DNA from: Clostridia bacterium
Lineage (GTDB): Bacteria > Bacillota > Clostridia > Christensenellales > UBA1242
Assembly: GCA_017523305.1 (NCBI GenBank)
Contig: JAFWWV010000077.1
Location: 1 to 63,008, forward strand
Direction of reading: 5' to 3'
Length of the DNA: 63,008 nt
This document shows, piece after piece, positions 14,050 through 40,244 of this stretch. The notes below the pieces were generated by a model. The model ran no database searches, was not told where the DNA came from, and worked only from the letters and a program-made list of their open reading frames with translations. Both the position numbers and the translations under genes were made by a program. Position 1 is the first letter of the stretch, and each line of letters begins with the position of its first letter.

Positions 14050-14065
14050 AATCGAATAAACATAT

Positions 14066-17740: not shown

Positions 17741-17745
17741 GAAAT

Positions 17746-17988: not shown

Positions 17989-18018
17989 TTCTATATAATA
18001 TATTATAATATAAATATA

Positions 18019-18172: not shown

Positions 18173-18204
18173 ACTTATAGCAAAATTAGTATGAGGTGAA
18201 ATTT

Positions 18205-18564
18205 ATGGTAACAGAAATTGGAAAGTTCTTAAGAGTTATTAGAGCTGAAAGAGGCGAGTCTGCTAGGGATATGGCCGAGAAAATGAATGTTTCGGCTTCA
18301 TATTTGTCTGCTGTAGAACTTGGTAGGAGAGAATTTCCTTTGGCTTGGGAGCAAACCTTAATCGAAGTCTATAACTTAAATGAGGCAAACAAGAAAAAAT
18401 TGCAAAAAGCAATAAAGGATTCAAAAACCAATGTAAAGTTTGACCTTAATGAAGTTGGCAACAAGAAAAAGGACTTAATACTTTCAGTTGCGAAGAATAA
18501 CCTTGATGACAAAACGATTGAACAGCTTTGCGAAATTATTAAAAAATATGAAGGAGACAAATAA
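18205..18564 (+). CDS. XRE-family HTH transcriptional regulator
   Basis: 'IGKFLRVIRAERGESARDMAEKMNVSASYLSAVELGRR' is a classic XRE HTH. AGGTG 6 nt before ATG 18205. Confidence 0.85.
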   Translation: MVTEIGKFLRVIRAERGESARDMAEKMNVSASYLSAVELGRREFPLAWEQTLIEVYNLNEANKKKLQKAIKDSKTNVKFDLNEVGNKKKDLILSVAKNNLDDKTIEQLCEIIKKYEGDK

Positions 18565-19222: not shown

Positions 19223-19232
19223 GAGGAAAAAT

Positions 19233-22883: not shown

Positions 22884-24176
22884 ATGTCAGTAAATCAAGA
22901 AAAGGAATTTTGTAACAAGAAGTTTAAAGAAGCAATTGTTTACGCTAGAAGGAAAGATGTAAAGAATTGTAGAAGTGCTTTGTTTGTTGTAATGGAATCA
23001 TTACTTAAGATTTCATATCAATTAAAGGGTAATGAAAAAACTGAATGTGAAGAAAAAATTAAATTTATATTAGAAATGGCAAAGACAATTGCTAATGAAG
23101 GTTTTACTGACGATGTTATGTTTAACCTTACTGGTGAATTGCCTAAAAAAGAAGTTGTAGAAAAGAAAGAAATAGTTGAAGAACAAATTGCTCAACCAAC
23201 TGAAATCGAAGATGAGGAAGAATTTGAGGATAACAAGACAAATAATCCTTTAAGACCTACAAGATTAAGAGATTATGTTGGGCAAGACAAAATTAAAAGG
23301 CCTTTGGCTGAAGCAATTTTGGCTGCTAGAACAAAACAAACATCATTAGACCATGTATTGCTGTTCGGTTCTGCAGGTTTAGGTAAAACAACATTAGCAA
23401 GAATTATTGCAAATGAGATGAAATCAAACATTATTGTAATGAATGGACCAACAATTAAGGATACAAATGATTTCATTAAAAATATTAAACAATTAAAAGA
23501 AAATGATATTGTATTTATAGATGAAATACACCGTATTAGCACTAGCGCTGCGGAATCTATATATACTGCTATGGAAGATTTCAAACTTTCATATATAAGA
23601 AACGATGGTAAAAATGTTGAAATGGATTTACCAAAGTTTACATTAATTGGTGCAACTACTCACTCTGGTTTGTTAGAAAAACCTATGAGAGATAGATTTG
23701 CTTTACAATTTAGACTTGAACCATATTCTGTAGATGTGCTTACTCAATTAGGTGTTAAGTCGTTTGAAAAACTTGGATTTAATATTTCGGAAGCTGATAT
23801 GAAAAATATTGCTAAAAGAAGTAGAGGAGTTCCAAGAATTTGTAATGGATTTATCAAGAGAATTTCTGATAAAGCATTAATAAGAAACACGAATGTTATT
23901 GATAAAAAGATTATTGAAGAATACTTTATTGATAACGAAATAGATAGTCTTGGATTAAATGCAGGTGATATTCATCTTCTTAAGACTATAATTAATAAAT
24001 TCAATGGTGGTCCGGTTGGACTTGATACATTAGCTTCGGCTACTGGTGAAGGCAAAAACATCATTGAAAATCAGTATGAACCATACCTAATATATCTTGG
24101 CTTTATAAACATCACACAAAATGGTAGGGTTGCAACTGAACAAGCATACAAACATTTAAAGATTGAAAAATACTAG
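22884..24176 (+). CDS. RuvB-paralog AAA+ ATPase with ~125-aa N-terminal MIT-like helical extension and acidic linker
   Basis: From 'LRPTRLRDYVGQDKIK' onward it is collinear with RuvB. It has Walker A 'GSAGLGKTT', Walker B 'IVFIDEIHR', 'LIGATT', 'RDRF', 'RGVPRI' and the winged-helix 'GGPVGLDTLA...EPYLI..GFI..T..GR'. The N-terminal extension is helical, then 'EIEDEEEFED'. Confidence 0.8.
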   Translation: MSVNQEKEFCNKKFKEAIVYARRKDVKNCRSALFVVMESLLKISYQLKGNEKTECEEKIKFILEMAKTIANEGFTDDVMFNLTGELPKKEVVEKKEIVEEQIAQPTEIEDEEEFEDNKTNNPLRPTRLRDYVGQDKIKRPLAEAILAARTKQTSLDHVLLFGSAGLGKTTLARIIANEMKSNIIVMNGPTIKDTNDFIKNIKQLKENDIVFIDEIHRISTSAAESIYTAMEDFKLSYIRNDGKNVEMDLPKFTLIGATTHSGLLEKPMRDRFALQFRLEPYSVDVLTQLGVKSFEKLGFNISEADMKNIAKRSRGVPRICNGFIKRISDKALIRNTNVIDKKIIEEYFIDNEIDSLGLNAGDIHLLKTIINKFNGGPVGLDTLASATGEGKNIIENQYEPYLIYLGFINITQNGRVATEQAYKHLKIEKY

Positions 24177-24194: not shown

Positions 24195-27100
24195 ATGGAT
24201 AAGAATATTTGTAATATCTGTGGTGGCAGTTATGTTTACAAGAATGGCAAATGGATTTGCTCTTGTTGTGATAATGTTAGACAAGATGAGATAACCAATG
24301 AAGAATTGGTTCTTTTGGCTAATGCTGCGACCAAATTGAGAATGGCAGATTTCGATAGTGCAGAAGAATTATATATGGACTTTGTAAAAAAATATCCTAA
24401 AAATTCTGAAGGTTACTGGGGACTTCTTTTATCTAAATATGGTATTAAGTATGAAGATGATTTTGACGGAAAGAAAATTCCTACAGTTTATGCTACTAGC
24501 ATTGAAAGTGTTTTAAATGATGAAAACTATAAGAAAGCAATCGCTTTAGCTGATAAAGAAACTGAAAAATACTATAAACAACAAGCAAATAAATTTGAAA
24601 GTATTAGACAAGAATGGGTTGAAAAGGCTTCAAAAGAACAACCTGTAGACATCTTTATCTGTTATAAAGATAGTGATGAAGAAAAAGATATTGCAAGAAC
24701 AGATGATAGTTATGAAGCTCAAAACCTTTATACATATTTAATGTCAAAAGGATACTCTGTATTCTTTAGTAGAGAAAGTTTGCGTGATAAAGTTGCTGAA
24801 AAATATGAACCATATATTTTCAATGCTTTAAATACCGCACACGTTATGATAGTTTATTCATCTTCCAAAGAATATTTGGAATCTACTTGGGTTAAGAATG
24901 AATGGACTAGATTTTTAAAGAAAATTAAAAATAAACAAAAACAAGAGAACTCACTTATCTTGGCTTTCGATAAAATGAAACCAAGTGATTTTCCAAAGGT
25001 TTTCTCAAATGTTCAATGTATGAATGCTTCGCAAAAAACATTCTATTCTGACCTTGAGAAACATATTCAAAAAGTAATTAAAAAAGCTACTGCGCCAATT
25101 ACAAGATTGGAAAGAGTAGAAGTAAAAGAAAATGTTAGACATAAAAGAGCTAAAAAACTTGATACTGATATTGCTAAAAGAGAAATTGGCTCATATAATG
25201 TTGAACAATTGACTGGTGATGAAGAAACTCAACTTAAGACTGCTTATAAATTCTTAAATAGGGGATTATTTGCAGACGCTGATGAAATCATCACAAAAAT
25301 CCTTGATAAAAACTCAAGAAATGGACAAGCAATTCTATGTAAGTTACTTGTTAATCTTGAAGCAAAAAACATTGAGGAATTAGAAAATCACATTGATGAA
25401 AATGTTGATTTTGATGAACTTGAAAACTCAATTGGCTATTCAAATAAAGATGTTGCTTTACAAATTCTTTCAGCGCTTAAAAATGCTTGCATAAATGAAT
25501 TTAATGCTGATAACAATGAATTTGCTTTACAATTGGCTGATTTTATTTGTAGATACAATGTTGAAGATGTCAATTTTAATAATAGAATTAATGAAGTTAT
25601 CACACATTTAGTAATTAAAGATGAAATTGAATGTGCAGATAAACTTGTACGAACTCTTTTAAGAACTCTTACAGATAACACCGATAGTTATTTGGAAGAA
25701 GTAGAAAAGACAATTGATACATTTAAAAAACAAGGTCATTTTGATATTGCAAGTAAATATGTAGATGAATATTTGGAAATTTATCCAACTAGCCACAAAA
25801 TGTTGTGGAAGAAAATATCTATTGACCTTAAATGTAAAAATGAAGTTGAATTAACAAGTAATATATTCAAACTTGAAGATATTTCAGTTTTTGAGAAAAT
25901 TCTTGAATGTACAAAAGCAGGACAAGAAAGAGATGGATATATTGAAAAACTTTTAAATATAATTCAAAAATGTGTTGAAGAAGTTACATCTAGTGAAGAT
26001 TTCTCAAAATGTTGTGATGTTTTTGATAAAATAATCAAATATACAACACAAGATGAAAAATATGTAAAATTAATATTTAGATATGCTGAAAATTGCCAAG
26101 AAAAAGGCCAATTTACACATGCTGAAAAGTACTATGCAATTGTTATTGGTGAAGATGAACAAAATCATAATGCTTATTGGAAACTATTACAATCCAAACT
26201 TAAAGTTAAAAACAACAAAGAATTAATTGAACAACCTGTAATAATTACAACTCTTTCAGAATTTCATAGTGCTATTGTTGCTACCGGTGATGATGAAAAG
26301 AGTGCTGATAGATATATTGACCTTAAAGCAAAACAGCTTGAATATATTGAAAAACAAAAAATATTAAAGGCAAAGAAAAAACACCAAAGAAAAGTTATGT
26401 CTATCTTTGCTGCCTGTCTTGCTGTAATTTTCGCTATTGGTGTAGGTTTATATGGTTGGAATCTATATTATAAATCACAAAACCAATTGCTATACACTTT
26501 AGAAGATGGAACCTATTCTGTTAGAGCAGGTAAGTATTATGATGAAAAATATATTACAATACCTGCAACATATAACGGTAAACCTGTTACAGAAATAGAT
26601 GAGAATGCATTCCAAAATAAAAATGTTCAAATTGTTTCAATTCCTAATACAATTGAGAAAATTTCAAACAATGCATTCAATGGTTGTGATGACTTAACAA
26701 AGGTAGAATATTATTCTGCAAATAACAATAGTAGAGCATTAGCAACTAATTCTTCAATGGAAACAATTGGTGATTATGCATTCTACAATTGCACTAAATT
26801 AGAAGATATTCAATTATCAAATAGTTTAACATATTTGGGTAAATATGCTTTTGCTAATTGCTTAAGCCTTAACGAAATAACAATTCCAAATACATTAGAA
26901 AATATCTTGGAAGGAACTTTCAAGAATGCATTTAATAGTAATGTAGAAAGTATTTCAATTCCAAAAGAAGTTGAATTTATTGGAAAAGACGCTTTCGATT
27001 GCAATATTGAAAATGTATTAGTGGACGAAAGAAATTCAATTCCAACAAATTGGGATACTGATTGGTGTGGAAATTCTTCTGAAATTGAAGTATTGTGGTC

Positions 27101-30100
27101 TATTCCATTAACTTTTAATTATGAAGGTGCTACAGCTAATATTGGTGCAACAAAAATATCAGTTGTGTATGGCAGACCATTTGAATGTCCGGTTCCAACA
27201 AAACTTGGTTACATCTTTGATGGTTGGTTTGGAATGAATGGCACTGAAGAAGTTCAGTATGCAGGCCCTGATGGTTTATCTATTGAAAATTGGAGTGAAA
27301 CCACATCAAAAACTGTATATGCTAAATGGACACCTAATAATAACACATTGATTTACAATGGAAATGGTGCAACTTCTGGTGATATGGAAAACCATATTAT
27401 TGCAACAGATTCAAGTGATAACTTAAAAACAAATGAATTTGTTAAAGCAGGATATACTTTCATAGGTTGGTCTACAACATCTAATGGTGAGGTAGAATAC
27501 GAAGATGGTGCAATTTATGAGATGGGGACTAATTCTTCTTATAATTTGTATGCTATTTGGACACCAAACACAAATGAAATTGTTTATAACGGAAATGGCG
27601 CTACTTCTGGCTCTATACCAAATCAACAAATTAAATCAGACGCAACTGCAAATCTTTATTCAAATATGTTCTTAAGAAATGGATATTCTTTTGCAGGTTG
27701 GTCTACATCTCAAAATGGTGAAGTGGTTTATGAAGATGGTGCAACCTATACAATGGGGACTAACTCATCTTATACACTTTATGCTGTTTGGGATATAGAA
27801 ACTTATGTTTGTTCAGTTAAATTAAACGGTGGTTCAATTGGACATGTTACAAGTATTCCATTCAATATCACATCTGAAGATTATGTGATTGGTACACCTA
27901 CAAAAGCAGGATACACTTTCACAGGCTGGAGCAGTAAATTGTTTAGTGGAAAGGTTATGACCTACACAATTGAACAAGGTACTTATACAAGCTTTACTTT
28001 GGAAGCAAATTGGGAAGCAAACACTAATAACATAATATTTAATGGAAATGGTGCAACTTCTGGTTCTATGGAAAACCAAGAAATAAAGACAAATCATTCT
28101 GCTTCATTAAGTATAAATCAGTATCAAAGAACAGGTTATAGATTTTTAGGTTGGTCTACAACATCTAATGGTGAGGTAGAATACGAAGATGGTGCAACTT
28201 ATACAATGGGTACTAATTCTTCTTATACACTTTATGCTGTTTGGGATAACTCAAGCACTGTGTTATTTAATGGAAATGGACATACTTCTGGTTCTATGGA
28301 AAGTATTCAAACAACAACTCTTTCTACTATAGAAGTTCCAAATAACTCATTTGTTAAAACTGGATACACATTCTTGGGTTGGTCTACAACTCAAAATGGT
28401 TCATCAGATGACATAATTGATTATTTGCCGGGTGAAAACTTTACAATTGGTACTGAAATTTCAAACACCTTATATGCTGTTTGGGAAGAAGGTAACATCT
28501 ATGTTATCTATGACACTGAAACATTGAAAGGGGTAGTTGAAGAAGTAATTGATTTTGCCAACTATGACAAATATTTAATGATTAGAGATATTGACCTTAA
28601 TAATGAAGAATGGACACCTATTGGTGAAATTTCAGCATTTTCAGGTACATTTGATGGAAATGGACATGTAATTAAAAACTTAAAGATTACTGAATTTTCA
28701 ACTGAAATCGGATTATTTGCTGTAAATTACGGAACAATCTGCAATTTAGGATTAGAAAATGTTAATATTGATATGCTTTGTACCTTAAGACAAGATAATG
28801 TTTATGTAGGAACAATTGCAGGAAGAAATGAAGGAACTATTTATAATTGTTTTGTAGATGGTGGAACTTTAAAAACAGACGCTAACTATATTGGTGGATT
28901 TGTAGGATATATGGGAAGAAGTTCTGCTTATGACCAAAGTATTACCGATTGTTATGCTTCACTTGATATTACCATAATTGCTAGGGGTAGTGGAACAACA
29001 TCATTTGAATATAGAAGATGTGGTGGATTTGTTTGTGATGGACAAGGTTCAATTTCTAATTGTTTTGCAAATTGTAACATCTATATTGATTTGCAATCAG
29101 AAGATTATCAAACATTCTCTTGTGGAAAGTTTATAGGAATTAACTTACCTTTAACAACACATACAAATAATTTCTATGCTGCTGAAACTGTTATACCTAC
29201 AAATGCAGATGGAATTTATGATAATGTTGTAAGTCCTAATTACGGAACAGAGACAAATCAATCTAATTTCTATAATAAAACTTGGGTTGAAGCTAATTTG
29301 TTTACAGCAAATGAATGGACTTATTCAGAAACAAAATTACCAAGAGTAAAACCAACCACTAAATCTATGGTTATTTACAATGGAAATGGTGCAACTACTG
29401 GTGATATGTTAACTGAATTTATAACTGCAAATACACATAATTTGACAACTAATTCTTTTGTAAGAGATGGTTACACATTTAAAGGTTGGTCTACAACTCA
29501 AAATGGAAGTGTGAATTACAATAATAATGGCTCATTAACAACTGTAGAAGGTCAAACAAAATATGTTTTATATGCTGTTTGGGAAGCAAACACAAATAAT
29601 ATCATATTTAATGGAAATGGACACACTTCTGGTTCTATGTCAAATCAACAAATTAAAACTGATAAATATGCTTCATTAAGTATAAATCAGTTCAAAAAGA
29701 CAGGCTACACCTTTAAGGGTTGGTCTACAACTCAAAATGGTGAAGTGGAATTTGTTGATGGTGCAACCTATACAATGGGTACCAACTCATCTTACACACT
29801 TTACGCTGTTTGGGAAGGTAATACTAATACAATTATTTTTGAAGGTAATGGCTCATCAAATGGTTTAATGGAAAACCAAACTGCTAAATCAGGACAAACA
29901 ATAACACTTGCGCTTAATCAATATGAAAAGCAATATAGTCGTTTCTTGGGTTGGGCAACAAGTGCTGATGGTGAAGTGGTTTATGAAGATGGTGCAACCT
30001 ACACAATGGGTACTAACTCATCTTATACACTTTATGCTAAATGGGGTAAACAATTAAAACAAATTACATCACTTGAAACTATTAGATATGATGTTCAATC

Positions 30101-30962: not shown

Positions 30963-31023
30963 TCATCAGATGTTTGGGAAATTACAAATGGCAATTTACC
31001 TACATTAAAAGTGGAAGTGTAAT

Positions 31024-31683
31024 ATGGTAACACAACAAGAATTGCAAAATCTAATACAACGTTTTATAAGAAATATTGAGGATTTGCAATCAATAGTAAA
31101 AAAAGACTATTTAACGGTCAATTCAGACCTTGAAGAACAAGCAAATAATGCTAGTGAACAAGAGTATAATCGACTAATTGAGATTTATACTAGTGAGAAT
31201 GATGATATATCGGCTTTATTAGATAAATCTCAAGAGGTTGGTTTGGAAAAATACTTATTACTTAAAGTAATGAGATATAGGAATCTTGCAAATTGGATAT
31301 GTAATGTAATTGAAATTTGGGAACAACAAATGTATTTGTTATATTCCGAAATAAAGCAAGATGGTAGAAAATTTAATAATTTTAATCAATTAGTTAAAGA
31401 AATTGAAAATTTGGGATTGCAAATTAGTGGTATGATAGAGTATCATAATTTGGAAAATAAAAGACTATTGGTTAATGTTATAAAACATTCAGAAGGTACT
31501 TCTGAAGAAAAATTAAGAAATGAGTGTCCTAAATATTTTGATAATTCGACAGAATTATTTGGGGATATGGATAATCTTAAAACATACAAAACTTCTTTAG
31601 GTGAAGTTGCATTAAACATTACTGAAGAAGATTTTGATGAAACTTGCTTTCAAATAATAGATTTTTGGAAAGCAATATTGTAA
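31024..31683 (+). CDS. Hypothetical cytoplasmic protein (219 aa) between the two TIR giants
   Basis: Clean ORF in operon context. No TM and no motif I recognise. Confidence 0.55.
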   Translation: MVTQQELQNLIQRFIRNIEDLQSIVKKDYLTVNSDLEEQANNASEQEYNRLIEIYTSENDDISALLDKSQEVGLEKYLLLKVMRYRNLANWICNVIEIWEQQMYLLYSEIKQDGRKFNNFNQLVKEIENLGLQISGMIEYHNLENKRLLVNVIKHSEGTSEEKLRNECPKYFDNSTELFGDMDNLKTYKTSLGEVALNITEEDFDETCFQIIDFWKAIL

Positions 31684-31700
31684 TACAAAGGAGAGCTTTA

Positions 31701-34700
31701 ATGGATAATATTTGTAATATCTGTGGTGGCAGTTATGTTTACAAGAATGGCAAGTGGATTTGCTCTTGTTGTGATAACATAAAAAATGAAAAAATTACAA
31801 ATGAAGAAGTTATATTATTGACAAATGCTTCAGCCAAATTAAGAATGGCTGCTTTTGACGATGCCGAAGAATTATATAGGGATTTCGTTAAGAAGTATCC
31901 TAAAAACCCAGAAGGTTACTGGGGACTTCTTTTATCTAAATATGGTATTAAATATGAGGAAGATTACGATGGTAAAAAGGTTCCTACTATTTATGCTACT
32001 AGCATTGAAAGTGTTTTAGAAGATAAAAACTATCAACTTGCTGTAGAATATGCTGATAAAGACCAAAAAAGATATTACAAACAACAAGCTCAACAATTTG
32101 AAAATATAAGACAAGAATGGATTGAGAAGGCGTCTAAAGAGCCACCTGTAGACGTGTTCATCTGTTTTAAAGATAGTGATGAAGAACATAACATTACTAG
32201 AACAGATGATAGTTATGAAGCACAAAACCTTTATACTTATTTGATTTCAAAAGGATACTCTGTATTCTTTAGTAGAGAAAGTTTGCGTGATAAAGTTGCT
32301 GAAAAATATGAACCATATATTTTCAATGCTTTAAATACCGCTAAAGTTATGGTTGTTTATTCTTCTTCAAGAGAATATATGGAATCTACTTGGGTTAAGA
32401 ATGAATGGACTAGATTTTTAAAGAAAATTAAAAATGGTGAAAAACAAAAGAACTCTTTGGTAGTGTCTTTTGAGAAAATGACAGCAAGTGATTTGCCAAA
32501 AGCATTTGCTTCTTGTCAATGTATGGACGCAAGCAAAAAAACTTTCTATGAAGATTTAGATAATCATATTAGAAAGGTAATAAACGAGAGTTCAGTTCCT
32601 ACTACAAAGATTGATAGGGTAGAATTAGGTTCTGCAAAAAAGCAAAAAACAGCGGCTAAAGCGATAGAGAACTTAAAAACAAGGGATTTATCAAAATATA
32701 AAGTTCAACAACTTACAGCTGATGAAAAAACAGAACTAAAAACTGCAAAAATATGCTTAAGTAAAGAATTGTTTGATGACGCTTTGCAATCTGCAAATAG
32801 ACTGTTAGAAATTAATCCAAATAACGGACAAGCTCTATATATCAAACTTTGCGCTGAAGAAAATATTTCTTCTGAAGAAGATTTAGTTGCTAAAGCAGGG
32901 ACAATAAAAAAGATTAATAGATTTGAAACAATAATTGAAAACTCATCTAAAGAGGATTCTATAAATCTTTTAAACATGCTTGTTTCGGGTTGTTCATTAT
33001 TAATTAAGAAAAATAACATTGAAAAAGCATTAGAATATTATAATCTTATAAGTCAATATGATTTTGACTATAAAAACATAGTTGAGGACTTTAAAAACAA
33101 GGCTTATAGACTTGTTGATAGTAAAAACTATAATTTGGTCGAGAGAATAGTTTCAAGCCTTTTAAAGACCATTACGGACACGAATGAGTATCTTGATGTT
33201 CTTAAAAACTTAATCATTGGGTTTAGAAAGAGTGGAGAAAGGGAATTAACTCTTAACTATTGCAAAAAATACATAGAAGTATTTGATTGTGATTACGAAA
33301 TTCTTTGGATTAAATTATGTGCGGAAATTGGTTGTTTAGATGATAGTGTATTACATAACTATATTGCAAACTTAAAAGATTTTGATAGTTTCAAAACAAT
33401 TCTTGAATATTCGCCAACAGAAGAAAAGCGAAATTTGTATATAACAACAACTTTGAATGCTGTTGTTAAGAAAATACAATCTAAAGAAATAGAAAATATT
33501 GAGTTACTTGCAAAAGTTTTTGATGAAGTTATTAAGTATACAAACAAGAAAAACAAAGAAAAAACACTTCAAATTGTTTTAAAAATGGCAAGTGCTTGTC
33601 AACTTAACTATAAATTTGATTTATCTGAAAAGTATTTTGCAATAGCGTTAAGTGAAAATAAGAGTTGCCACGAAGCATATTGGGGATTGCTTCAATCAAA
33701 ATTAAAAGCAAGAAATAATAATGAATTGATTGAACAACCTACAATTATTTCAACAATGCCTGACTTTCATAGTGCAATTGCTGCGGCAGGTGATGATGAG
33801 AGAATTTCAGAAAAATATATCGATATTAAGGCAAAACAATTAAAATATATCGAACATAAAGCTGAAGTTGATAAGGCAAAGAAGAAAAAGAAAAGAAAAA
33901 TTAAAATTATTTCAATAATTGTTGCAATTGCTCTTGCTATTGGCGCAGCTCTTGGTGGGTACGGTGTTTACTATTCATCAGAAAATAAATTACTATATAC
34001 CTTATCTGAAGATGGAAAGGGTTATATTGTTTCTGCAGGAAAGTTTTATGATGAAAATGTTATAACAATTCCTGAAACTTATAACGGTAAAGAAGTCATT
34101 GGTATTGCTGAAAATGCCTTTAAAAACAAAAACTTAACAAGTTTAAATATTCCTAGTACTGTACAAGAAATTGATGACAATGCTTTCTATGGTTGTGATA
34201 ATCTAGCAAATATCAAATTTGATGGAACTTTATATCAAGGAATTTATTCATCAGACCTTACAACAATCGGAAACTATGCATTCTATGGTTGTTCTGAATT
34301 AAAGACCGTTCAATTACCAGAATCAGTAGAAAGTGTTGGAAAATATGCTTTTGCTAATTGTAATAAATTAAATTCAATCAACTTAACAAGTAATATTTCA
34401 GAATTACCTGAAGGTTTATTTGAAAATTCTTTCTCTTATACAATTTCATCAATATCTATACCTGAAAATATTGATTATATTGGAAAAAATGTATTTAATA
34501 ATTGTACAAAGTTAAGTAAAATATTTATAGATGAACGTGAAGAAATACCACATAATTGGGATAATAATTGGTGTGGAAACAATACAAACAATTATGAGAT
34601 TATTTGGACTTTGAAAGTAGATTTAAACTATAATGGTGGAACATCTACATCAAATAAAACAAGTATATCTGTTGTTTTAGGTGAAAATTTTGAATGTCCT

Positions 34701-37700
34701 GTTCCTACAAAGTTAGGATATATCTTTGAAGGTTGGGGATATACTAAAAATGAGCAATTTACTTTGTTGACCGATGAAGAAGGTTTATCAAGAAATGCTT
34801 GGAATATTGAAGAAGACATAACTTTAACTGCTAAATGGACTGCAAGAGATTATGAAATTACTTATCACTTAAATGGTGGGGAAAATCATACTCAAAATCC
34901 AAGTTCATTTACAATTGAAACTGATACATTTGAATTGTTTAATCCAACAAGAAGTTATTATGAATTTGAAGGTTGGTATACAAACGAATTATTAACTAAT
35001 CCAATTACATCTATAACAAAAGGAACAACTGGACATATAGATGTTTATGCTAAATGGACACCTATCGAATATGATATTACATACGTAATGAATGGTGGTA
35101 CTAATAATAATTTGAACCCTAACACCTACAATGTAGAAACATATTTTGATTTTGAAAATCCATTTAAAAAAGGTTTTGAATTTAAGGGTTGGTTCACAGA
35201 CAGCGAATTTAATAACGAAATTTCAAGATTAAATAGACAATATCTTGGTGATATAGCACTTTATGCTAAATGGGAAATTATTACTTATCCAATTAATTAT
35301 GAATTAAATGGTGGTACTAATAATGTTGGAAACAAATCAAATTATACAGTTGAAACAGACACATTTAGTTTATTAAATCCAACTCGTGAACATTATACTT
35401 TTGGCGGTTGGTTTAATGATAATTCATACACAAGTGAATTAAATTCTATCGAAAAGGGTACAATAGGACAAAAAACACTTTATGCTAAATGGACACCAAT
35501 TGAATATAATATTACTTACATCTTAAATGGTGGTACAAACAATAATCAAAATCCAAATACTTACAATGTAGAAGATGAGATAATATTTGCAGAACCTACA
35601 AGAAATGGTTATAGCTTTAAAGGTTGGTTCACAGATAGCGAATTTAATAATGAAATTACAAACATAAATAGAGAATTTTTAGACGAAATTACTCTTTATG
35701 CTGAATGGGAAATTATTACTTATCCAATTAATTATGAATTAAATGGTGGTACTAATAATCCTGAAAATAAATCTAATTATACAATTGAAACTGATACATT
35801 TGAATTAAAAAATCCTACTAGAGAACATTATTCATTTAACGGTTGGTATGATTTTGTATTTGATACAAGAGTTACTGAAGTAACAAAGGGAACTTTTGGT
35901 GAAAAGACATTCTGCGCAAGATGGACACCTATCGAATATGATATTAATTATGTCTTGAATGGTGGAACTAATAATGCACAAAATCCTACAACATATAATG
36001 TAGAAGATAGTTTTGTATTTAAGACACCAACAAAAACAGCATATACCTTTATGGGTTGGTTTAGTAATGAGGAATTAACTCAAGAATTTTCTTCATTAAA
36101 TAGTCAATATTATGGTGAAATTACTCTTTATGCGAAGTGGACACCAACAACATATAATATTGGATATGCTATGAATGGTGGTACAAACAATCCTTTAAAT
36201 CCAACATCATATAATGTTGAAAGTGAAGATATAATTCTTCAGAATCCTACAAAATCAGGATATGATTTTAGATGTTGGTACTTGAATGGTGTTATTGTAG
36301 ATAGAATAACTACAGGAACTTATGGTAATTTGGTTCTTACACCTGTATTTGACGCTATTTTTGAAGTCTCAAGCGGAACAATAAACGGTCTAACAGAATA
36401 TGGAAAAAATACATATAATGAGATTGTGATACCTGAAGAAATACACGGAAACACAATAACAAAAATTTCTTCAGCTGCCTTTAAAGATGATACTTCACTT
36501 ACAAAAGTTGAAATTCCTGCAACTGTAACAAGTATAGGGAATGGTGCATTTAGTGGTTGTTCTTCCTTAACGGATATTGTAATTCCTTTTGTTGGTGGAA
36601 ATTCTACATCAAGCAATTCAACAAGTGCTGTTTTTGGATATATATTTGGAACACAATCATACGAAGGTTCAACAAAAACAACACAACAATATAGGTCTCA
36701 AGGCTCATACTCAACATATACAGAAACTTTTTATATTCCAACTTCACTAAAAAATGTAAAAGTTTTAAATGGTGATTTGAAATATGGAGCTTTCCATAAT
36801 TGTGTTGACTTGGAAAATATTGAAATTATGAATGCTACACTAATAGATAGTTATGGCGTTAATACTTGTACAAGTTTAAAGACAATAACACTTCCAAAGA
36901 GCTTAACATCAGTTACAGCCTATGCATTCCAATATTCTGATAGTCTTGAAAAGGTTTATTATAAAGGCGAGATAAATGATTGGGCGGTAATTTCATTTGG
37001 TAATAATACATCAAATCCAATGTACTATGCTCAACAATTTTATCTTGAAAGTGATAAAATTAATGAAGTAACAAAATTAAATTTAACTGCAGAAAATATT
37101 GGATACGCGGCTTTCTACGGATTTAATAATGTTGATGAAATTATTATCAATGAAAGTGTAAAAACAATAGGTAACAATGCTTTCTTTGGTTGTTCAAAAG
37201 TTACAACAATTGATGTTCCAACAACAGTAACCAAAATAGGTAGTTCTGCGTTTGGGAATTGGTATAGTTTGGAATCAATTAAACTTCCTTTTGTAGGAAC
37301 AGATAGAACATCAAACGAAAGTACTGCGAGTGTTTTTGGTTATGTCTTTGGTGGAAGTGGTGAGCAAATGACAAGTGTTACACAAAATTATTCGCCATAC
37401 TCAACACATACATATATGCTACCAACAGCATTGAAGACAGTTGAAATATATGATGGAAACTTAAAATATGCAGGATTTAGTGGTTGTACAACATTAGAGA
37501 CTATTGTTATAAGTTCACAAACAACTACATTAACAAGAAGTTTATTTTCTGGTTGTACTAATCTTAAAAATTTAACACTTCCAAAATCAATTAAAACAAC
37601 AGATACCAATGTTTTTAACAATAATAATGCTCTTGATAATGTTTATTACAATGGAACACTTGAAGATTGGAATAAAATTACATTTACTGCAGGTTCTTCA

Positions 37701-40244
37701 AATCCTATGGGGTATGCAGACCACTTCTTTATTAAAAATGGGGAAGATTGGGAAGAAGTTACAGAACTTGATTTGACAGATTTAGAAACAATAGGTGATT
37801 ATGCATTCTATGGATTTAATAATATAACAACAATCAATTTATCTACAAACTTACAAACTATAGGAACATATTCTTTTGCTTATTGTAGTAATGTTAATGA
37901 GATAGTTGTTCCTGATTCTGTTACGGGAATTGGATATAATGCTTTTGGTGCATGTACATCATTGGCAACTATAACATTACCATTTGTTGGGGCAAGCACA
38001 ACTGCAACGGGTTCTTCAAATATTTTAGGATTCTTATTTGATATAAATACTGAAGGCACAACTGCAACTCATCAACAATATTCAAGTAGTTCTTCTGATA
38101 CCAAATTTATTCCAACAACATTGAAAACAGTAAACATTTCAGGTGGAAAAATTGGATATGGAACATTCTATAACTGTGAAACAATAGAAACTATTAGTTT
38201 ATCTGATTCCATTACAAATCTTGGAATTTATTCATTTTACGGTTGTACAAAACTTAAAAATATCAATATTCCGGGAGTTGTAACAATACAAGATAAGGCT
38301 TTCTATCAATGTACAACCCTTGAAAGTATTACATTGCCTAAATCTATTAAAACAATTAAAGATGGAGCTTTTGTAACCAATTCATCATTATTTACCAATG
38401 TTTACTTTAAAGGTACAATAAATGAATGGGCTAATATTGCATTTGCTTCTTCAACAGCAAATCCACTATATAGCGCTGAACATTTATATATTGAAGAAAG
38501 TGAAGGTGTATGGAAAGAAATTAATTCATTAGATTTGACTGGTTTGGAAACAATTAGTGAGTATTCTTTCTATGGCTTTGAAGGCCTTTCAGAACTAGTT
38601 ATAGGAAATACTTTAAAGATTATACCAACATCTGCATTCTATAGTTGTATTAACCTAATAAAACTTGATTTAACAGGTGTTGAACAAATCAATAATTCCG
38701 CATTCTATGATTGTGATAGTTTATCTTATTTAATAATTCCTGATAGTGTTAAAACGATAGATAAGAAAGCCTTTGGTTATTCTGCAAATTTGAAATATGT
38801 CTATATTTCTGATTCTGTAACAACAATTAAAACAGGTTCAGATGATGACTATTCACCATTTGTTGGTTGTTCAAATGTGGCTTTCTATTGTGAAGGTTCA
38901 AAGGCTCAATCTGGTTGGGAATCATATTGGAATATATCAAGAACACCTAATTATGAAATTGAAATAGAAGAATTTATGTTTATTGCTGACTTTAAAGCTG
39001 AAAATTATACATTAATTGATGGTGTTTATTATTACATTAGCTCTGATAAGACTATAGTTTATGCTTTAGGTGTTGATGATAAGACAATGACAGATATAAC
39101 TCTATATTCAAAAACTACAAGAATAGGATTTAAAGCATTTAGTGGTTGTACAAAACTTAAAAATATTACCTTAAGAAGCACAATTAAGAGAATATCGGAT
39201 AAAGCCTTTGAGAGTTGTTCTACACTTACAAATGTTTATTATGATGGCACAATTGAAGATTGGTGCAATGTAACAATTGGAAATATTTCTGCAGAAACAT
39301 CATTCTTTACAACACCAATGTACTATGCAGACCACTTCTTTATTAAAAATGGGGAAGATTGGGAAGAAGTTACAGAATTAGTTATTCCTGATAGTATTAC
39401 TGAAATTGGTTTATTGCAATTTTATGGGTTTGAATATCTAACATCAGTAATTATTCCAAGTTCAGTAACACGTATTAATAATTGTGCATTCTATAATTGC
39501 TTAAGAGTTACTAATTTAACAATTGGCGAAAATGTAACATATATCGGAAATAGAGCATTCTATGATTGTGATAAATTAACATCAATATATATACCAAAAT
39601 CGGTTGTTGATATATCTGCTTCAGCAAACAACTATTCGCCATTTTTTGGTTGCTCAAGTAGTTTAAAAATTTACTGTGGAGTAAATAGTAAACTAGATGG
39701 TTGGGGAAAATATTGGAATTGTTACTATGCTACATCAAATAGTAATAATAGTTATTTGACTGCTTATTATGATTATGAGTATGAAGAATATCTATTTGCA
39801 ATAGCAACAGATAAATCATCATTTACATTGATTGATAATGTTTACTATTACATTAATGAAGATGAGAGTAAAGTTTATGCTTTAGGTGTAAGTGATAAAA
39901 CAGCTTCTGAAATCGTTCTTGATGAGAGAACAACAAGAATTTCGCCAATAGCATTTAAAAATTGTACAGCATTGACTTCTATTGTTATTCCTGAAAATGT
40001 AGAGTATATTGCGCTTGACGCGTTTACAGGTAGTACTAATTTAACAACTGTATATGTTGATAGTACTGATATTTACAATTCATTGGAATCTAAATATTCT
40101 TGCGGAAGTGTATTTGAAAACTCATCTATCATCTATGTTTTACAACAAATTGTAAACACAGAAACTTCTAATGAATACCTTAATAATGCCGATGTATTTA
40201 ACAAGGTAGAAGAAGGGGAATACTTTAAATACTCACGTATTTAA
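31701..40244 (+). CDS. Second giant TIR/TM/LRR protein (2847 aa), paralog of 24195-30962 with a different ectodomain
   Basis: ATG 31701 follows AAAGGAGAG. It has the same Zn-ribbon/TPR/TIR layout (TIR nt 32148-32570). TM aa 735-757 (nt 33903-33971) follows 'KAKKKKKRK'. LRR_5 ~33990-34560. About 11 Flg_new repeats ('Y.I.Y.LNGG.NN..NP..Y..E' ... 'LYAKWTPI') at 34610-36350. Then repeated BspA-type LRR cassettes run to the end. Confidence 0.85.
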   Translation: MDNICNICGGSYVYKNGKWICSCCDNIKNEKITNEEVILLTNASAKLRMAAFDDAEELYRDFVKKYPKNPEGYWGLLLSKYGIKYEEDYDGKKVPTIYATSIESVLEDKNYQLAVEYADKDQKRYYKQQAQQFENIRQEWIEKASKEPPVDVFICFKDSDEEHNITRTDDSYEAQNLYTYLISKGYSVFFSRESLRDKVAEKYEPYIFNALNTAKVMVVYSSSREYMESTWVKNEWTRFLKKIKNGEKQKNSLVVSFEKMTASDLPKAFASCQCMDASKKTFYEDLDNHIRKVINESSVPTTKIDRVELGSAKKQKTAAKAIENLKTRDLSKYKVQQLTADEKTELKTAKICLSKELFDDALQSANRLLEINPNNGQALYIKLCAEENISSEEDLVAKAGTIKKINRFETIIENSSKEDSINLLNMLVSGCSLLIKKNNIEKALEYYNLISQYDFDYKNIVEDFKNKAYRLVDSKNYNLVERIVSSLLKTITDTNEYLDVLKNLIIGFRKSGERELTLNYCKKYIEVFDCDYEILWIKLCAEIGCLDDSVLHNYIANLKDFDSFKTILEYSPTEEKRNLYITTTLNAVVKKIQSKEIENIELLAKVFDEVIKYTNKKNKEKTLQIVLKMASACQLNYKFDLSEKYFAIALSENKSCHEAYWGLLQSKLKARNNNELIEQPTIISTMPDFHSAIAAAGDDERISEKYIDIKAKQLKYIEHKAEVDKAKKKKKRKIKIISIIVAIALAIGAALGGYGVYYSSENKLLYTLSEDGKGYIVSAGKFYDENVITIPETYNGKEVIGIAENAFKNKNLTSLNIPSTVQEIDDNAFYGCDNLANIKFDGTLYQGIYSSDLTTIGNYAFYGCSELKTVQLPESVESVGKYAFANCNKLNSINLTSNISELPEGLFENSFSYTISSISIPENIDYIGKNVFNNCTKLSKIFIDEREEIPHNWDNNWCGNNTNNYEIIWTLKVDLNYNGGTSTSNKTSISVVLGENFECPVPTKLGYIFEGWGYTKNEQFTLLTDEEGLSRNAWNIEEDITLTAKWTARDYEITYHLNGGENHTQNPSSFTIETDTFELFNPTRSYYEFEGWYTNELLTNPITSITKGTTGHIDVYAKWTPIEYDITYVMNGGTNNNLNPNTYNVETYFDFENPFKKGFEFKGWFTDSEFNNEISRLNRQYLGDIALYAKWEIITYPINYELNGGTNNVGNKSNYTVETDTFSLLNPTREHYTFGGWFNDNSYTSELNSIEKGTIGQKTLYAKWTPIEYNITYILNGGTNNNQNPNTYNVEDEIIFAEPTRNGYSFKGWFTDSEFNNEITNINREFLDEITLYAEWEIITYPINYELNGGTNNPENKSNYTIETDTFELKNPTREHYSFNGWYDFVFDTRVTEVTKGTFGEKTFCARWTPIEYDINYVLNGGTNNAQNPTTYNVEDSFVFKTPTKTAYTFMGWFSNEELTQEFSSLNSQYYGEITLYAKWTPTTYNIGYAMNGGTNNPLNPTSYNVESEDIILQNPTKSGYDFRCWYLNGVIVDRITTGTYGNLVLTPVFDAIFEVSSGTINGLTEYGKNTYNEIVIPEEIHGNTITKISSAAFKDDTSLTKVEIPATVTSIGNGAFSGCSSLTDIVIPFVGGNSTSSNSTSAVFGYIFGTQSYEGSTKTTQQYRSQGSYSTYTETFYIPTSLKNVKVLNGDLKYGAFHNCVDLENIEIMNATLIDSYGVNTCTSLKTITLPKSLTSVTAYAFQYSDSLEKVYYKGEINDWAVISFGNNTSNPMYYAQQFYLESDKINEVTKLNLTAENIGYAAFYGFNNVDEIIINESVKTIGNNAFFGCSKVTTIDVPTTVTKIGSSAFGNWYSLESIKLPFVGTDRTSNESTASVFGYVFGGSGEQMTSVTQNYSPYSTHTYMLPTALKTVEIYDGNLKYAGFSGCTTLETIVISSQTTTLTRSLFSGCTNLKNLTLPKSIKTTDTNVFNNNNALDNVYYNGTLEDWNKITFTAGSSNPMGYADHFFIKNGEDWEEVTELDLTDLETIGDYAFYGFNNITTINLSTNLQTIGTYSFAYCSNVNEIVVPDSVTGIGYNAFGACTSLATITLPFVGASTTATGSSNILGFLFDINTEGTTATHQQYSSSSSDTKFIPTTLKTVNISGGKIGYGTFYNCETIETISLSDSITNLGIYSFYGCTKLKNINIPGVVTIQDKAFYQCTTLESITLPKSIKTIKDGAFVTNSSLFTNVYFKGTINEWANIAFASSTANPLYSAEHLYIEESEGVWKEINSLDLTGLETISEYSFYGFEGLSELVIGNTLKIIPTSAFYSCINLIKLDLTGVEQINNSAFYDCDSLSYLIIPDSVKTIDKKAFGYSANLKYVYISDSVTTIKTGSDDDYSPFVGCSNVAFYCEGSKAQSGWESYWNISRTPNYEIEIEEFMFIADFKAENYTLIDGVYYYISSDKTIVYALGVDDKTMTDITLYSKTTRIGFKAFSGCTKLKNITLRSTIKRISDKAFESCSTLTNVYYDGTIEDWCNVTIGNISAETSFFTTPMYYADHFFIKNGEDWEEVTELVIPDSITEIGLLQFYGFEYLTSVIIPSSVTRINNCAFYNCLRVTNLTIGENVTYIGNRAFYDCDKLTSIYIPKSVVDISASANNYSPFFGCSSSLKIYCGVNSKLDGWGKYWNCYYATSNSNNSYLTAYYDYEYEEYLFAIATDKSSFTLIDNVYYYINEDESKVYALGVSDKTASEIVLDERTTRISPIAFKNCTALTSIVIPENVEYIALDAFTGSTNLTTVYVDSTDIYNSLESKYSCGSVFENSSIIYVLQQIVNTETSNEYLNNADVFNKVEEGEYFKYSRI

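What the first reader, a model, noticed from the sequence alone, without database searches (positions are those of the whole stretch)
24195..40244. Toll-like-receptor topology in bacterial proteins: TIR inside, single TM, LRR-containing ectodomain outside
Both giants lack a signal peptide. Both have exactly one hydrophobic helix (nt 26394-26465 and 33903-33971) preceded by a Lys/Arg cluster ('KAKKKHQRK', 'KAKKKKKRK'). By the positive-inside rule, the ~733-aa N-terminal part (Zn ribbon, TPR-like, TIR, helical stalk) is cytoplasmic. The remaining ~1500 aa and ~2090 aa would be extracellular: BspA-type LRR, Flg_new Ig-like repeats, GLUG blocks or further LRR cassettes. The TIR core keeps the conserved Glu context 'STWVKNEW', compatible with NADase or signal-generating TIRs. 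An LRR ectodomain, one TM and a cytoplasmic TIR is the animal TLR layout. Bacterial TIR defence proteins that I know of are soluble.
Basis: partly seen in the sequence, partly recalled or inferred. Interest (0 to 1): 0.85.

Follow-up and report, generated by a model that had tools for sequence, protein, structure and literature searches.

The report
Membrane-anchored bacterial TIR proteins, LRRs outside
Two giant gut-bacterial membrane proteins carry a TIR immune-signalling domain on the predicted inner side and leucine-rich-repeat binding domains on the outer side, and this Toll-like-receptor layout marks a large, unstudied protein family genetically tied to membrane-scaffold genes.

Summary
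Two paralogous genes (24195-30962, 2255 aa; 31701-40244, 2847 aa) encode proteins with this order of parts: Zn ribbon, short TPR-like helices, a genuine TIR fold, a helical stalk, one transmembrane helix, then 1500-2090 aa of BspA-type LRR, Flg_new and GLUG repeats. Charge bias, the absence of a signal peptide, a Cys4 ribbon and exported-type C-terminal domains all predict N-in/C-out topology.

This is not a one-off. At least 549 loci in Clostridia and Bacilli genomes encode the same 300-aa head. It is almost always membrane-tethered, with swappable C-terminal parts, and W-x-x-x-E is invariant.

The giants end a 22-kb operon: HTH, SPFH, two coiled-coil proteins, an AAA ATPase, a trypsin-like protease and a RuvB-type ATPase. 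This operon is conserved in relatives. SPFH linkage is family-wide (37 of 81 loci).

The layout resembles a TLR only by convergence: the polarity is reversed and the LRR class differs. NADase activity, ligand sensing and a defence role are inferred, not shown. I found no paper describing the family. I rate it a new variant of a known kind, interest about 0.7.

The parts
18144..18172 (+). Promoter-like site (TTGACA-17-TGnTATTAT, 11/12) just after a terminator-like hairpin at 18018-18046. Likely start of the module's transcription unit.
   Evidence: consensus match only
18196..18564 (+). HTH_31 (XRE-type) regulator, first gene of the conserved module
   Evidence: Pfam HTH_31 E=1e-8; 37-46% identical orthologues at the same position in 7 loci
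18566..19222 (+). SPFH protein of the Band_7_1 (YdjI-like) family, soluble, no TM segment
   Evidence: Pfam Band_7_1 38.7 bits vs cut-off 24; start taken from the independent gene call in L088; syntenic in 10 loci; SPFH gene next to TIR genes in 37 of 81 loci
19215..20297 (+). X360: about 340-360 aa coiled-coil protein with no family assignment
   Evidence: no Pfam/NCBIfam/PADLOC hit; 41-47% identical orthologues in 12 loci
20299..20889 (+). X202: 196-aa all-helical protein, the most conserved module member (65-70% identity). Its fold is suggestive of ESCRT-III/PspA.
   Evidence: 626 homologues, all unnamed, no Pfam; AF2 five helices, pLDDT 67; Foldseek top hits CHMP2A/3, CdvB, CHMP1B, Vipp1, PspA, Snf7, all E>0.1
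20904..22043 (+). [quoted passage not shown]
   Evidence: Pfam AAA E=3e-39; PADLOC IetA 149 bits; best PDB relatives Cdc48/p97; N-domain profile hits TPR designs and one MIT domain at E=0.012
22044..22871 (+). Cytoplasmic trypsin-like serine protease with an N-terminal CxxC...CxxC ribbon
   Evidence: Pfam Trypsin_2 E=6e-26; sequence; no TM segment; syntenic in 11 loci
22884..24176 (+). RuvB-type AAA+ ATPase. Its extra 110-aa N-terminal domain is homologous to the N-domain of the module's AAA ATPases. It occupies the slot held by a second AAA gene in related loci.
   Evidence: NCBIfam RuvB 362 bits vs 282; hhalign N-domain prob 84%, E=8e-6; positional equivalence in L003/L005/L011/L014
24195..30962 (+). 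Giant 1 (2255 aa), a type II membrane protein
24210..24269 (+). G1 Cys4 zinc ribbon (C6, C9, C22, C25 invariant)
24642..25091 (+). G1 TIR domain (aa 150-299). Candidate catalytic Glu236 is the codon at 24900-24902, within invariant W232-x-K-N-E236-W.
25092..26393 (+). G1 cytoplasmic helical (TPR-like) stalk, aa 300-733, ending in the K/R cluster
   Evidence: weak TPR_14/TPR_2/TPR_19 hits; sequence. This is the part least conserved between G1 and G2.
26394..26462 (+). G1 single transmembrane helix (aa 734-756)
26463..30959 (+). G1 predicted ectodomain: LRR_5 (about aa 770-960), Flg_new x6 (about 965-1440), GLUG block, Flg_new x3, GLUG block
31024..31683 (+). 219-aa acidic helical ORF between the two giants, with no homologue found. 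Other loci also have a small unrelated ORF between TIR genes.
31701..40244 (+). Giant 2 (2847 aa), paralogue of G1
32145..32594 (+). G2 TIR domain (aa 149-298; Glu235 codon at 32403-32405)
33900..33968 (+). G2 single transmembrane helix
33969..40241 (+). G2 predicted ectodomain: LRR_5, Flg_new x7-8, then about 1300 aa of further LRR_5 cassettes

Best explanation
G1 and G2 are type II (N-in/C-out) single-pass membrane proteins. They belong to a large, uncharacterised Firmicute family defined by a 300-aa cytoplasmic head: Zn ribbon, three TPR-like helices, and a TIR domain with invariant W-x-x-x-E. The head is tethered to the membrane and followed by interchangeable extracytoplasmic modules.

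The most likely mechanism is outside-in signalling. The variable ectodomains bind an extracellular or cell-surface ligand, such as a phage particle, another cell or a host polymer. Binding clusters the proteins. Clustering brings the TIR heads together, which is the known activation route for TIR enzymes. The assembled TIRs then cleave NAD+, either depleting it or producing a nucleotide signal.

This would take place on a sub-membrane platform made by the co-encoded SPFH scaffold and coiled-coil proteins. The AAA unfoldase(s) and the trypsin-like protease would turn over or process components. On this element the module is cargo of an integrated conjugative element, and it most plausibly serves conflict or defence.

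Shown: architecture, TIR fold, residue conservation, predicted topology, family size, synteny. Inferred: NADase activity, ligand-induced activation, partner interactions, biological role.
For: Architecture and TM helix.

TIR fold: AF2 pLDDT 87 / pTM 0.79. Foldseek hits both NADase and adaptor TIRs, with AbTir TM-score 0.72 normalised to the target.

Glu context: 48 invariant head positions, including W232, K234, N235, E236 and W237. E236 aligns to the conserved TIR Glu. W-x-x-x-E is retained in 120/120 database homologues and 106/106 locus-encoded heads.

Topology:
- K/R count is 4.5 upstream versus 1.0 downstream of the TM helix, and net charge is +2.9 versus -0.9. In 60 of 67 members K/R is higher upstream.
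- 119 of 120 homologues lack an N-terminal hydrophobic segment.
- The other LRR_5 proteins in the window have signal anchors, and all module partners lack TM segments.

Receptor-like diversification:
- 107 of 120 homologues are membrane-tethered.
- C-terminal modules include LRR_5 (49/120), Flg_new, SBP_bac_3, TM2, DUF6273, FNIP, M23 and RHS.
- Several paralogues occur per genome, often in tandem.

Partnership:
- The module HTH-SPFH-X360-X202-AAA-TIR-TRYP is found in at least 13 loci plus 4 of 5 sampled X202 contexts.
- An SPFH gene lies adjacent in 37 of 81 loci, including a distinct SPFH-TMx-TIR cassette in Lachnospiraceae, Oscillospiraceae and cultured isolates.

MGE and defence setting: MobL relaxase, T4CP and VirB4-like genes lie downstream. 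BrxP-like and GajB/AddA-like genes lie upstream, and the AAA is IetA-like. L008 and L092 also sit on conjugative elements.

The family is nearly absent from viral contigs: 3 loci in 2.9 million.
Against: - No biochemical or topological experiment exists.
- A conserved Glu is also kept by TLR1/2/6/10 TIRs, which the cited survey does not list among TIRs with reported NADase activity (PMC7075850). Foldseek does not separate enzyme from adaptor TIRs.
- No PADLOC defence model matches the head.
- No recognised sensor of TIR products (SLOG, Macro, SAVED, SIR2) was found in any ORF scanned.
- LRR_5, Flg_new and GLUG are typical adhesin modules of gut Firmicutes.
- Seven of the 67 single-TM relatives are tail-anchored with no ectodomain, and others are polytopic. 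An ectodomain ligand therefore cannot be essential for the whole family.
- In L082-84 the module is chromosomal, next to pnp/rpsO, so it is not strictly MGE cargo.
- The 430-aa cytoplasmic TPR-like stalk could itself be the sensor.
Confidence: 0.45

Rival explanations
1. Surface adhesin with a structural cytoplasmic anchor. The giants would be BspA/internalin-like adhesins for host, mucus, partner-cell or mating-pair contact. The TIR head would only be a protein-protein interaction module that docks them to SPFH microdomains, without catalysis.
For: The ectodomains are made entirely of adhesin-type repeats. The element is conjugative, and Gram-positive transfer systems use large surface adhesins. 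Adaptor TIRs (MyD88, MAL, TRAM) score as well as enzymes in Foldseek. SPFH linkage is compatible with scaffolding.
Against: Invariance of W-x-x-x-E and 48 head positions across orders of Firmicutes is stronger than expected for a mere anchor. Ectodomains also include SBP_bac_3, M23 and RHS, and some members have none. The module also occurs in chromosomes away from transfer genes.
Confidence: 0.25
2. Inside-out or intracellular sensing. The cytoplasmic TPR-like stalk and head would detect an intracellular cue such as a phage or plasmid protein. The TIR would act as an abortive-infection NADase. The membrane anchor and ectodomain would only localise the protein, or be shed or remodelled after cleavage by the AAA/trypsin pair.
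For: TIR+TPR single-protein defence systems exist in E. coli (PMC11350192). G1 and G2 have a 430-aa TPR-like stalk, which is the most divergent cytoplasmic part between the paralogues. A cytoplasmic protease and unfoldases are co-encoded.
Against: Most relatives lack the stalk and place the TM helix directly after the TIR at about aa 315-345. The greatest diversity lies in the C-terminal part, not the cytoplasmic part.
Confidence: 0.15
3. Envelope-stress or membrane-repair system. SPFH, the coiled-coil (ESCRT-III/PspA-like) proteins and the AAA ATPase would form a PspA/YdjI-type membrane maintenance machine. The TIR-TM proteins would be its damage sensors or clients rather than immune receptors.
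For: Band_7_1 is the YdjI family, which recruits PspA to the membrane in B. subtilis (PMC8581546). PspA homologues recurrently associate with Band-7 and AAA+ genes (PMC11237479). The X202 fold search is dominated by ESCRT-III superfamily members. A core HTH-SPFH-X336-X202 set exists without TIR genes.
Against: X202 has no sequence-level link to PspA or Snf7, and its model confidence is only moderate. This reading does not explain giant variable ectodomains or the TIR domain. The frequent MGE location argues against it.
Confidence: 0.1
4. Annotation or assembly artefact. The TIR head would be fused to a surface protein by mis-assembly or a read-through of two genes.
For: P0001, an identical head from another sample, is called as only 1013 aa.
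Against: That shorter call lies at a contig end. The same architecture recurs in two paralogues here and in hundreds of independent assemblies, including isolate genomes. There are no in-frame stops.
Confidence: 0.01

Closest known systems
Animal Toll-like receptors (LRR ectodomain, single TM, cytoplasmic TIR)
   Same: Both have the same three-part logic and the same sidedness: repeats that bind ligands outside, one helix, and TIR inside. The best PDB sequence match of the head is a TLR15/TLR2 TIR (E=4e-4). Both occur as multi-paralogue repertoires with diversified ectodomains. Recruitment of TLRs to raft/flotillin-type microdomains (my own knowledge, not checked here) would be a possible parallel to the SPFH linkage.
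   Different: The polarity is reversed (type II: TIR N-terminal, no signal peptide). The LRRs are BspA-type LRR_5 mixed with Flg_new and GLUG rather than a single LRR horseshoe with capping motifs. There is no RDxxPG Box 2. There is an extra Zn ribbon and TPR-like head. No MyD88-type adaptors are evident. The resemblance is convergent, not homologous.
Bacterial TIR NADase immune proteins (Thoeris ThsB, TIR-STING, SPARTA TIR-APAZ, AbTir, E. coli TIR-I to IX)
   Same: They share the TIR fold with W-x-x-x-E, several TIR paralogues in one locus as in Thoeris, and a position on mobile elements or next to defence genes.
   Different: No PADLOC model matches. There is no ThsA, SLOG, Macro or SAVED partner. 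The protein is membrane-anchored with a huge ectodomain, whereas PMC11350192 notes that TM plus LRR features seem absent from bacterial TIR systems. The partners here are SPFH, coiled-coil proteins, AAA and a trypsin-like protease.
BspA-like / internalin-like LRR surface proteins of gut Firmicutes and Bacteroidota
   Same: They share the LRR_5, Flg_new (Listeria-Bacteroides repeat) and GLUG repeat content and the giant size.
   Different: Those proteins use a cleaved signal peptide with a cell-wall or lipid anchor and have no cytoplasmic domain. Here a 733-aa cytoplasmic TIR module precedes a signal-anchor helix. There is no LPXTG motif at the C-terminus.
SPFH-centred membrane systems: YdjI-PspA (B. 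subtilis), and HflK/C-FtsH and stomatin-NfeD (the last two cited from my own knowledge)
   Same: A Band_7_1 SPFH protein is co-encoded with coiled-coil proteins, an AAA ATPase and a serine protease, and with single-pass membrane proteins as likely clients (PMC8581546, PMC11237479).
   Different: There is no detectable PspA, NfeD or FtsH homologue. The protease is trypsin-like and soluble. TIR-bearing clients have not been described for any SPFH system in the papers I could search.
IetAS (AAA ATPase plus protease anti-plasmid/anti-phage pair)
   Same: The AAA at 20904 matches IetA models (149 bits) and is followed directly by a serine protease.
   Different: The protease hits no IetS model. The pair is embedded in a seven- to ten-gene conserved module and in relatives is separated by the TIR gene.

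Membership tests
TIR domain superfamily | Profile match above the curated threshold | tested here: met
   Pfam TIR_2 39.2 bits (G1) and 37.5 bits (G2) versus cut-off 28
TIR domain superfamily | Flavodoxin-like five-strand/five-helix TIR fold | tested here: met
   AF2 pLDDT 87 with strands and helices at aa 153-299. Foldseek hits include SARM1, MyD88, L7, AbTir (TM 0.72 to target) and TIR-STING.
TIR NADases | Conserved alpha-C glutamate in a W-x-x-x-E context | tested here: met
   E236 is invariant and aligned with the conserved TIR Glu. The motif is present in 120/120 and 106/106 relatives.
TIR NADases | NAD+ cleavage or cyclic ADPR isomer production on oligomerisation | not testable with these tools
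   Needs biochemistry on the purified head
Animal Toll-like receptors | LRR outside, one TM helix, TIR inside | tested here: met
   Predicted only: single helix, positive-inside bias, LRR_5 after the helix, LRR_5 proteins exported in the same window
Animal Toll-like receptors | Type I polarity: signal peptide, N-terminal LRR, C-terminal TIR | tested here: not met
   TIR is at aa 150-299, the helix at 734-756, the LRRs are C-terminal, and there is no signal peptide
Animal Toll-like receptors | TLR-type TIR motifs (Box 2 RDxxPG in the BB loop) | tested here: not met
   The BB-loop region reads SRESLRDKVAEKYEPY, and the alignment to TLR15/2 does not superpose an RDxxPG
Thoeris | ThsB-type TIR recognised by defence-system models | tested here: not met
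   No PADLOC hit at E<=1e-3 for aa 1-772
Thoeris | Adjacent ThsA effector (SIR2 or Macro/TM with SLOG) | tested here: not met
   No such domain in any ORF scanned across the window
IetAS | IetA ATPase plus IetS protease pair | tested here: inconclusive
   IetA model 149 bits for 20904-22043. The adjacent protease matched RT-protease, PDC-M35A and HamA models, but no IetS.
SPFH / Band_7_1 (YdjI-like) | Profile match above threshold | tested here: met
   Band_7_1 38.7 bits versus 24 in the window; 113-132 bits in the L029, L057 and L061 neighbours
ESCRT-III / PspA superfamily (for X202) | Sequence-profile relationship to Snf7 or PspA_IM30 | tested here: not met
   No Pfam hit at E<=1; no PDB sequence hit; only 45 representative clusters, and none bridges to known families
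ESCRT-III / PspA superfamily (for X202) | Helical hairpin plus three to four further helices; fold match to ESCRT-III structures | tested here: inconclusive
   Five helices, pLDDT 67. About half of the top 50 Foldseek hits are ESCRT-III, PspA or Vipp1, but the best is E=0.12.
Vps4-like AAA ATPases | N-terminal MIT domain | tested here: inconclusive
   The N-domain profile hits TPR designs and one MIT domain (2mpk) at E=0.012. The ATPase core is closest to Cdc48/p97.

The most novel reading that the evidence does not exclude
These proteins would be true outside-in pattern-recognition receptors of bacteria. Each genome would hold a repertoire of paralogues whose diversified LRR, Ig-like or solute-binding ectodomains recognise extracellular ligands such as phage particles, foreign cells or host polymers. 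They would transmit this by clustering cytoplasmic TIR NADase heads within SPFH 'raft' platforms. Read-out or reset would be handled by an ESCRT-III-like/AAA/protease machine. This would be a convergent prokaryotic counterpart of TLR signalling, and the first TIR system triggered from outside the cell.
Probability: 0.25. Interest if true: 0.92.

Novelty: new variant of a known kind. Interest (0 to 1): 0.72.

Why it matters
Every bacterial TIR system whose trigger I am aware of (from general knowledge and PMC11350192) is described as sensing events inside the cell. A TIR enzyme wired to a large, variable extracellular domain would mean bacteria can couple surface recognition to NAD+-based signalling. 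It would also give an independent, convergent origin of the LRR-TM-TIR logic that underlies animal innate immunity.

The family is abundant in human and ruminant gut Firmicutes and is often carried on conjugative elements. It may therefore affect phage resistance, plasmid traffic or host contact in the microbiome.

The recurrent SPFH linkage offers a concrete, testable hypothesis for what bacterial SPFH scaffolds organise. The conserved, unannotated partners (X202, X360, TMx) are new protein families whose function could be approached through this system.

Tried and rejected
1. TIR-head helices (aa 35-81) as an MIT-like domain shared with the AAA ATPases: rejected. hhalign gave probability 2%. 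The same test did link the AAA and RuvB-type N-domains (84%).
2. X202 as ESCRT-III/PspA by sequence: a profile search against PDB found nothing relevant. An exhaustive profile search of 1.84 billion representatives found only 45 clusters, and their distant members carry no PspA or Snf7 Pfam signal. Only the fold-level hint remains.
3. PADLOC on the head and on SPFH, X360 and X202: no hits.
4. NCBIfam on the head: only sub-threshold TPR-like hits.
5. Megablast of the conjugation half of the window against PLSDB plasmids: no match.
7. A TIR-only profile against PDB at E<=10 did not reach AbTir, SARM1 or ThsB. A residue-level comparison with proven NADases therefore rests only on the TLR alignment and the W-x-x-x-E motif.
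8. Phage origin: only 3 relatives in IMG/VR.
9. Literature searches for TM/LRR bacterial TIR proteins or a TIR-SPFH link found no description of this family.
10. One mis-framed Pfam query and one uninformative long translation.
Full report
**Observation.** The region holds two + strand ORFs of 2255 aa (24195-30962) and 2866 aa (31644-40244). The second really begins at ATG 31701. There the peptide MDNICNICGG mirrors G1's MDKNICNICGG, and an AAAGGAGA ribosome-binding site precedes the ATG, as in G1. This gives 2847 aa.

Pfam results for the two proteins:

| Family | G1 | G2 |
|---|---|---|
| TIR_2 (cut-off 28 bits) | 39.2 bits | 37.5 bits |
| LRR_5 | E=3e-28 | E=1.5e-180 |
| Flg_new | E=1e-60 | E=2e-78 |
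| Glug | present | absent |
| TPR_14, aa 41-75 | near threshold | near threshold |

A 19-residue Kyte-Doolittle scan finds one TM-grade segment per protein. In both it is aa 734-752, with scores 2.59 and 2.46. The next best windows score 1.13 and 1.34. The helices follow KAKKKHQRK and KAKKKKKRK.

The paralogues are 44% identical over 1428 aa. Conservation is mosaic: the 310-aa head is 76% identical, the stalk is poorly conserved, and the juxtamembrane region, helix and first LRR/Flg_new units are well conserved again.

**The TIR call.** I aligned 18 heads (A1). There are 48 invariant positions, including the four ribbon cysteines and W232-x-K234-N235-E236-W237. AlphaFold2 on this alignment gave pLDDT 87 and pTM 0.79. 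The model shows a ribbon (aa 1-27), three helices (35-81), a beta hairpin, two helices, and a canonical five-strand/five-helix TIR at 153-299.

Foldseek against the PDB returned SARM1, MyD88, L7, TIR-STING, AbTir (TM-score 0.72 to target), RPP1, ROQ1 and SPARTA. The best PDB sequence match is a TLR15/TLR2 TIR (E=4e-4). In that alignment S-x-W-C-x-x-E lines up with S-T-W-V-K-N-E.

W-x-x-x-E is retained in 120/120 database homologues and 106/106 locus-encoded heads. This is compatible with catalysis but does not prove it. TLR1/2/6/10 also keep the Glu (PMC7075850), and Foldseek ranks adaptor TIRs equally well.

**Topology.** Several lines of evidence point to N-in/C-out:
- There is no N-terminal hydrophobic segment, and the protein starts with a Cys4 ribbon.
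- There are 8 K/R before the helix and 1 after (row P0001, whose first 772 aa are identical to G1's).
- The C-terminal domains are of types that are normally exported.

The bias holds across the family. Among 67 single-TM relatives, mean K/R is 4.5 upstream versus 1.0 downstream, net charge is +2.9 versus -0.9, and 60 have more K/R upstream. Two smaller LRR_5 proteins in the same window (58963, 59874) start with signal-anchor-like segments. Every other protein of the operon lacks a TM segment. No topology predictor or experiment was available, so this remains a prediction.

**A large family.**
- The N-terminal 772 aa retrieved more than 250 proteins. Their heads are 35-60% identical. NCBI names them only 'toll/interleukin-1 receptor domain-containing protein' or 'leucine-rich repeat protein'.
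- Of the best 120, 107 have at least one TM-grade segment after the head. Sixty-seven have a single helix, usually right after the TIR at aa 315-345. The others are polytopic (TM2) or tail-anchored.
- Downstream Pfam content is interchangeable: LRR_5 49/120, Flg_new 12, TM2 9, SBP_bac_3 5, DUF6273 5, FNIP 5, Sel1 4, plus M23, RHS and Glug.
They occur in Christensenellales, Oscillospiraceae, Lachnospiraceae, Ruminococcaceae, Erysipelotrichaceae and Anaeroplasmataceae. Cultured isolates are included (Ruminococcaceae bacterium YRB3002, Blautia sp.). Several paralogues per genome are common, often in tandem.
- Only 3 relatives occur in 2.9 million viral contigs.

The giants close a tightly packed operon. 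It begins at a strong promoter-like site (18144-18172) after a terminator-like hairpin. The gene order is:
- HTH_31 regulator
- SPFH (Band_7_1)
- a 360-aa coiled-coil protein (X360)
- a 196-aa helical protein (X202)
- AAA ATPase
- Zn-ribbon trypsin-like protease
- a RuvB-type ATPase with an extra N-domain
- G1
- a 219-aa ORF
- G2

The same module, with 32-70% identical orthologues in the same order, occurs around the closest relatives (L001, L003-L008, L011, L012, L014, L026, L037, L042). It also occurs in 4 of 5 sampled X202 contexts. An independent assembly of the same element confirms the gene calls.

The RuvB-type gene belongs to the module. Its N-domain is homologous to that of the module AAA ATPases (hhalign 84%, E=8e-6). 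It sits where related loci have a second AAA gene.

SPFH linkage is wider than this subclade. In 37 of 81 loci a Band_7_1 gene lies on the same strand beside the TIR gene(s). At least 17 loci have a distinct cassette: SPFH with double Zn ribbons, a 4-TM protein of about 235 aa (TMx, no Pfam), and one to three TIR-TM genes.

**Mobile-element setting.** The window starts in chromosomal genes (Lon, EngB, MraZ, RsmH, a PBP). It then carries:
- AddAB/GajB-like helicase-nuclease genes, a BrxP-like PAPS reductase and a cysteine desulfurase
- the module
- a LexA-like repressor, sigma-factor pieces, MobL relaxase, T4CP, a 1469-aa protein and a VirB4-like ATPase

The module is therefore cargo of an integrated conjugative element. 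L008 and L092 are similar. L082-84 are chromosomal, next to pnp/rpsO.

**Partners.**
- X202 has 626 homologues, none named and none with a Pfam domain. It forms only 45 clusters in the 1.84-billion-protein library.
- Its AF2 model (pLDDT 67) has five helices. Foldseek's top hits are mostly ESCRT-III superfamily members (CHMP2A/3, CdvB, CHMP1B, Asgard ESCRT-IIIB, Vipp1, PspA, Vps24, Snf7). The best E-value is 0.12.
- Sequence methods find no link to ESCRT-III or PspA. I treat this as a lead only.
- The AAA ATPase is classic-clade. It is closest to Cdc48/p97 and IetA-like. Its three-helix N-domain gives only weak TPR/MIT-type matches.
- The literature documents PspA-Band-7-AAA+ associations and the YdjI-PspA link (PMC11237479, PMC8581546). 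None of these involves TIR proteins.

**Mechanism.** The best-supported reading is a membrane-tethered TIR module activated by clustering. The variable ectodomain acts as the ligand-binding part. The SPFH and coiled-coil proteins form the sub-membrane platform. The AAA/protease pair acts as regulator or executor.

Points in favour:
- invariance of the catalytic-type motif
- receptor-like diversification and paralogy
- cytoplasmic partners
- the conflict-gene and MGE neighbourhood

Points against:
- no known sensor of TIR products nearby
- no defence-model hit
- adhesin-type repeats in the ectodomains
- relatives without an ectodomain

The rivals are an adhesin with a structural TIR, intracellular sensing by the stalk, and an envelope-stress machine. 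None can be excluded without experiments.

**Comparison and novelty.** The layout matches TLRs in sidedness only. The polarity is reversed, the LRR class differs and Box 2 is absent, so this is convergence. The protein is a member of the TIR superfamily, but not of Thoeris or any PADLOC-modelled system.

A 2024 survey of E. coli TIR defence systems states that TM and LRR features seem absent from bacterial TIR systems (PMC11350192). My full-text searches found no description of this family or of a TIR-SPFH association. I rate it a new variant of a known kind. It is of high interest to people working on bacterial immunity and TIR evolution, with the function still to be shown.

Noticed in passing
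window 22884-24176: A protein scoring above NCBI's RuvB equivalog cut-off (362 vs 282 bits) carries an extra 110-aa N-terminal helical domain shared with the module's AAA ATPases. It sits inside the TIR operon, in the position where related loci have a classic AAA gene. It looks like a recruited, non-housekeeping RuvB-type motor.
   Followed up: partly
window 9144-16870: A block of conflict-type genes lies upstream of the module. It contains a 969-aa protein with a weak Cas4/AddB-like nuclease end, a UvrD/AddA/GajB-like helicase (682 aa), a BrxP-like PAPS reductase with a 4Fe-4S motif (276 bits to the PADLOC BrxP model), and a class-V aminotransferase/cysteine desulfurase. It may be a DNA-modification or BREX-related cargo module.
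   Followed up: partly
window 1-8839 versus 9144 onward: The left end is ordinary chromosome (Lon C-terminal part, EngB-type GTPase, MraZ, RsmH, a PBP transpeptidase). The mobile element seems to be inserted right after the division/cell-wall genes. No integrase or attachment repeats were looked for.
   Followed up: no
window 40381-62887: Conjugation region: LexA-like S24 repressor, HTH and sigma-70 region-4 proteins, MobL relaxase, T4CP, a 1469-aa protein with an N-terminal signal-like segment and a C-terminal TM segment, a VirB4/TraG-like ATPase, DUF3846, and two small signal-anchored LRR_5 proteins (58963-61004). There is no megablast match in PLSDB.
   Followed up: partly
window 16973-17988: A 255-aa protein with a weak GIY-YIG (LEM-3-like) and PD-T4-3 signal, and an 80-aa Cys-rich ORF. 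They lie between two terminator-like hairpins, just before the module promoter.
   Followed up: no
L029, L050, L057, L060, L064, L066-L068, L070, L071, L073, L076, L077, L079-L081: A second, simpler conserved cassette occurs in other Firmicutes. It consists of SPFH (480-670 aa, Band_7_1 plus double Zn ribbon), TMx (about 235 aa, four TM helices plus a helical tail, no Pfam family) and one to three TIR-TM genes.
   Followed up: partly
L085-L087 (10001-10582 and upstream): The four-gene core HTH-SPFH-X336-X202 also occurs without any TIR, AAA or protease gene, next to a Mob_Pre relaxase. The SPFH/coiled-coil set can therefore stand alone.
   Followed up: no
window 24195-26510 vs 31701-34010: Conservation between the two giants is mosaic. 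The first 75 nt or so are almost identical at DNA level and the heads are 76% identical. The 430-aa stalk is only weakly similar. The region from the juxtamembrane segment to the first Flg_new unit is again about 60% identical. This suggests gene conversion or selective constraint on both ends of the cytoplasmic part.
   Followed up: no
L001 19116-20186 (minus strand): A metallo-beta-lactamase-fold gene with an Anti-Pycsar Apyc1 Pfam hit lies a few kb downstream of a related TIR cluster in a Clostridia MAG.
   Followed up: no
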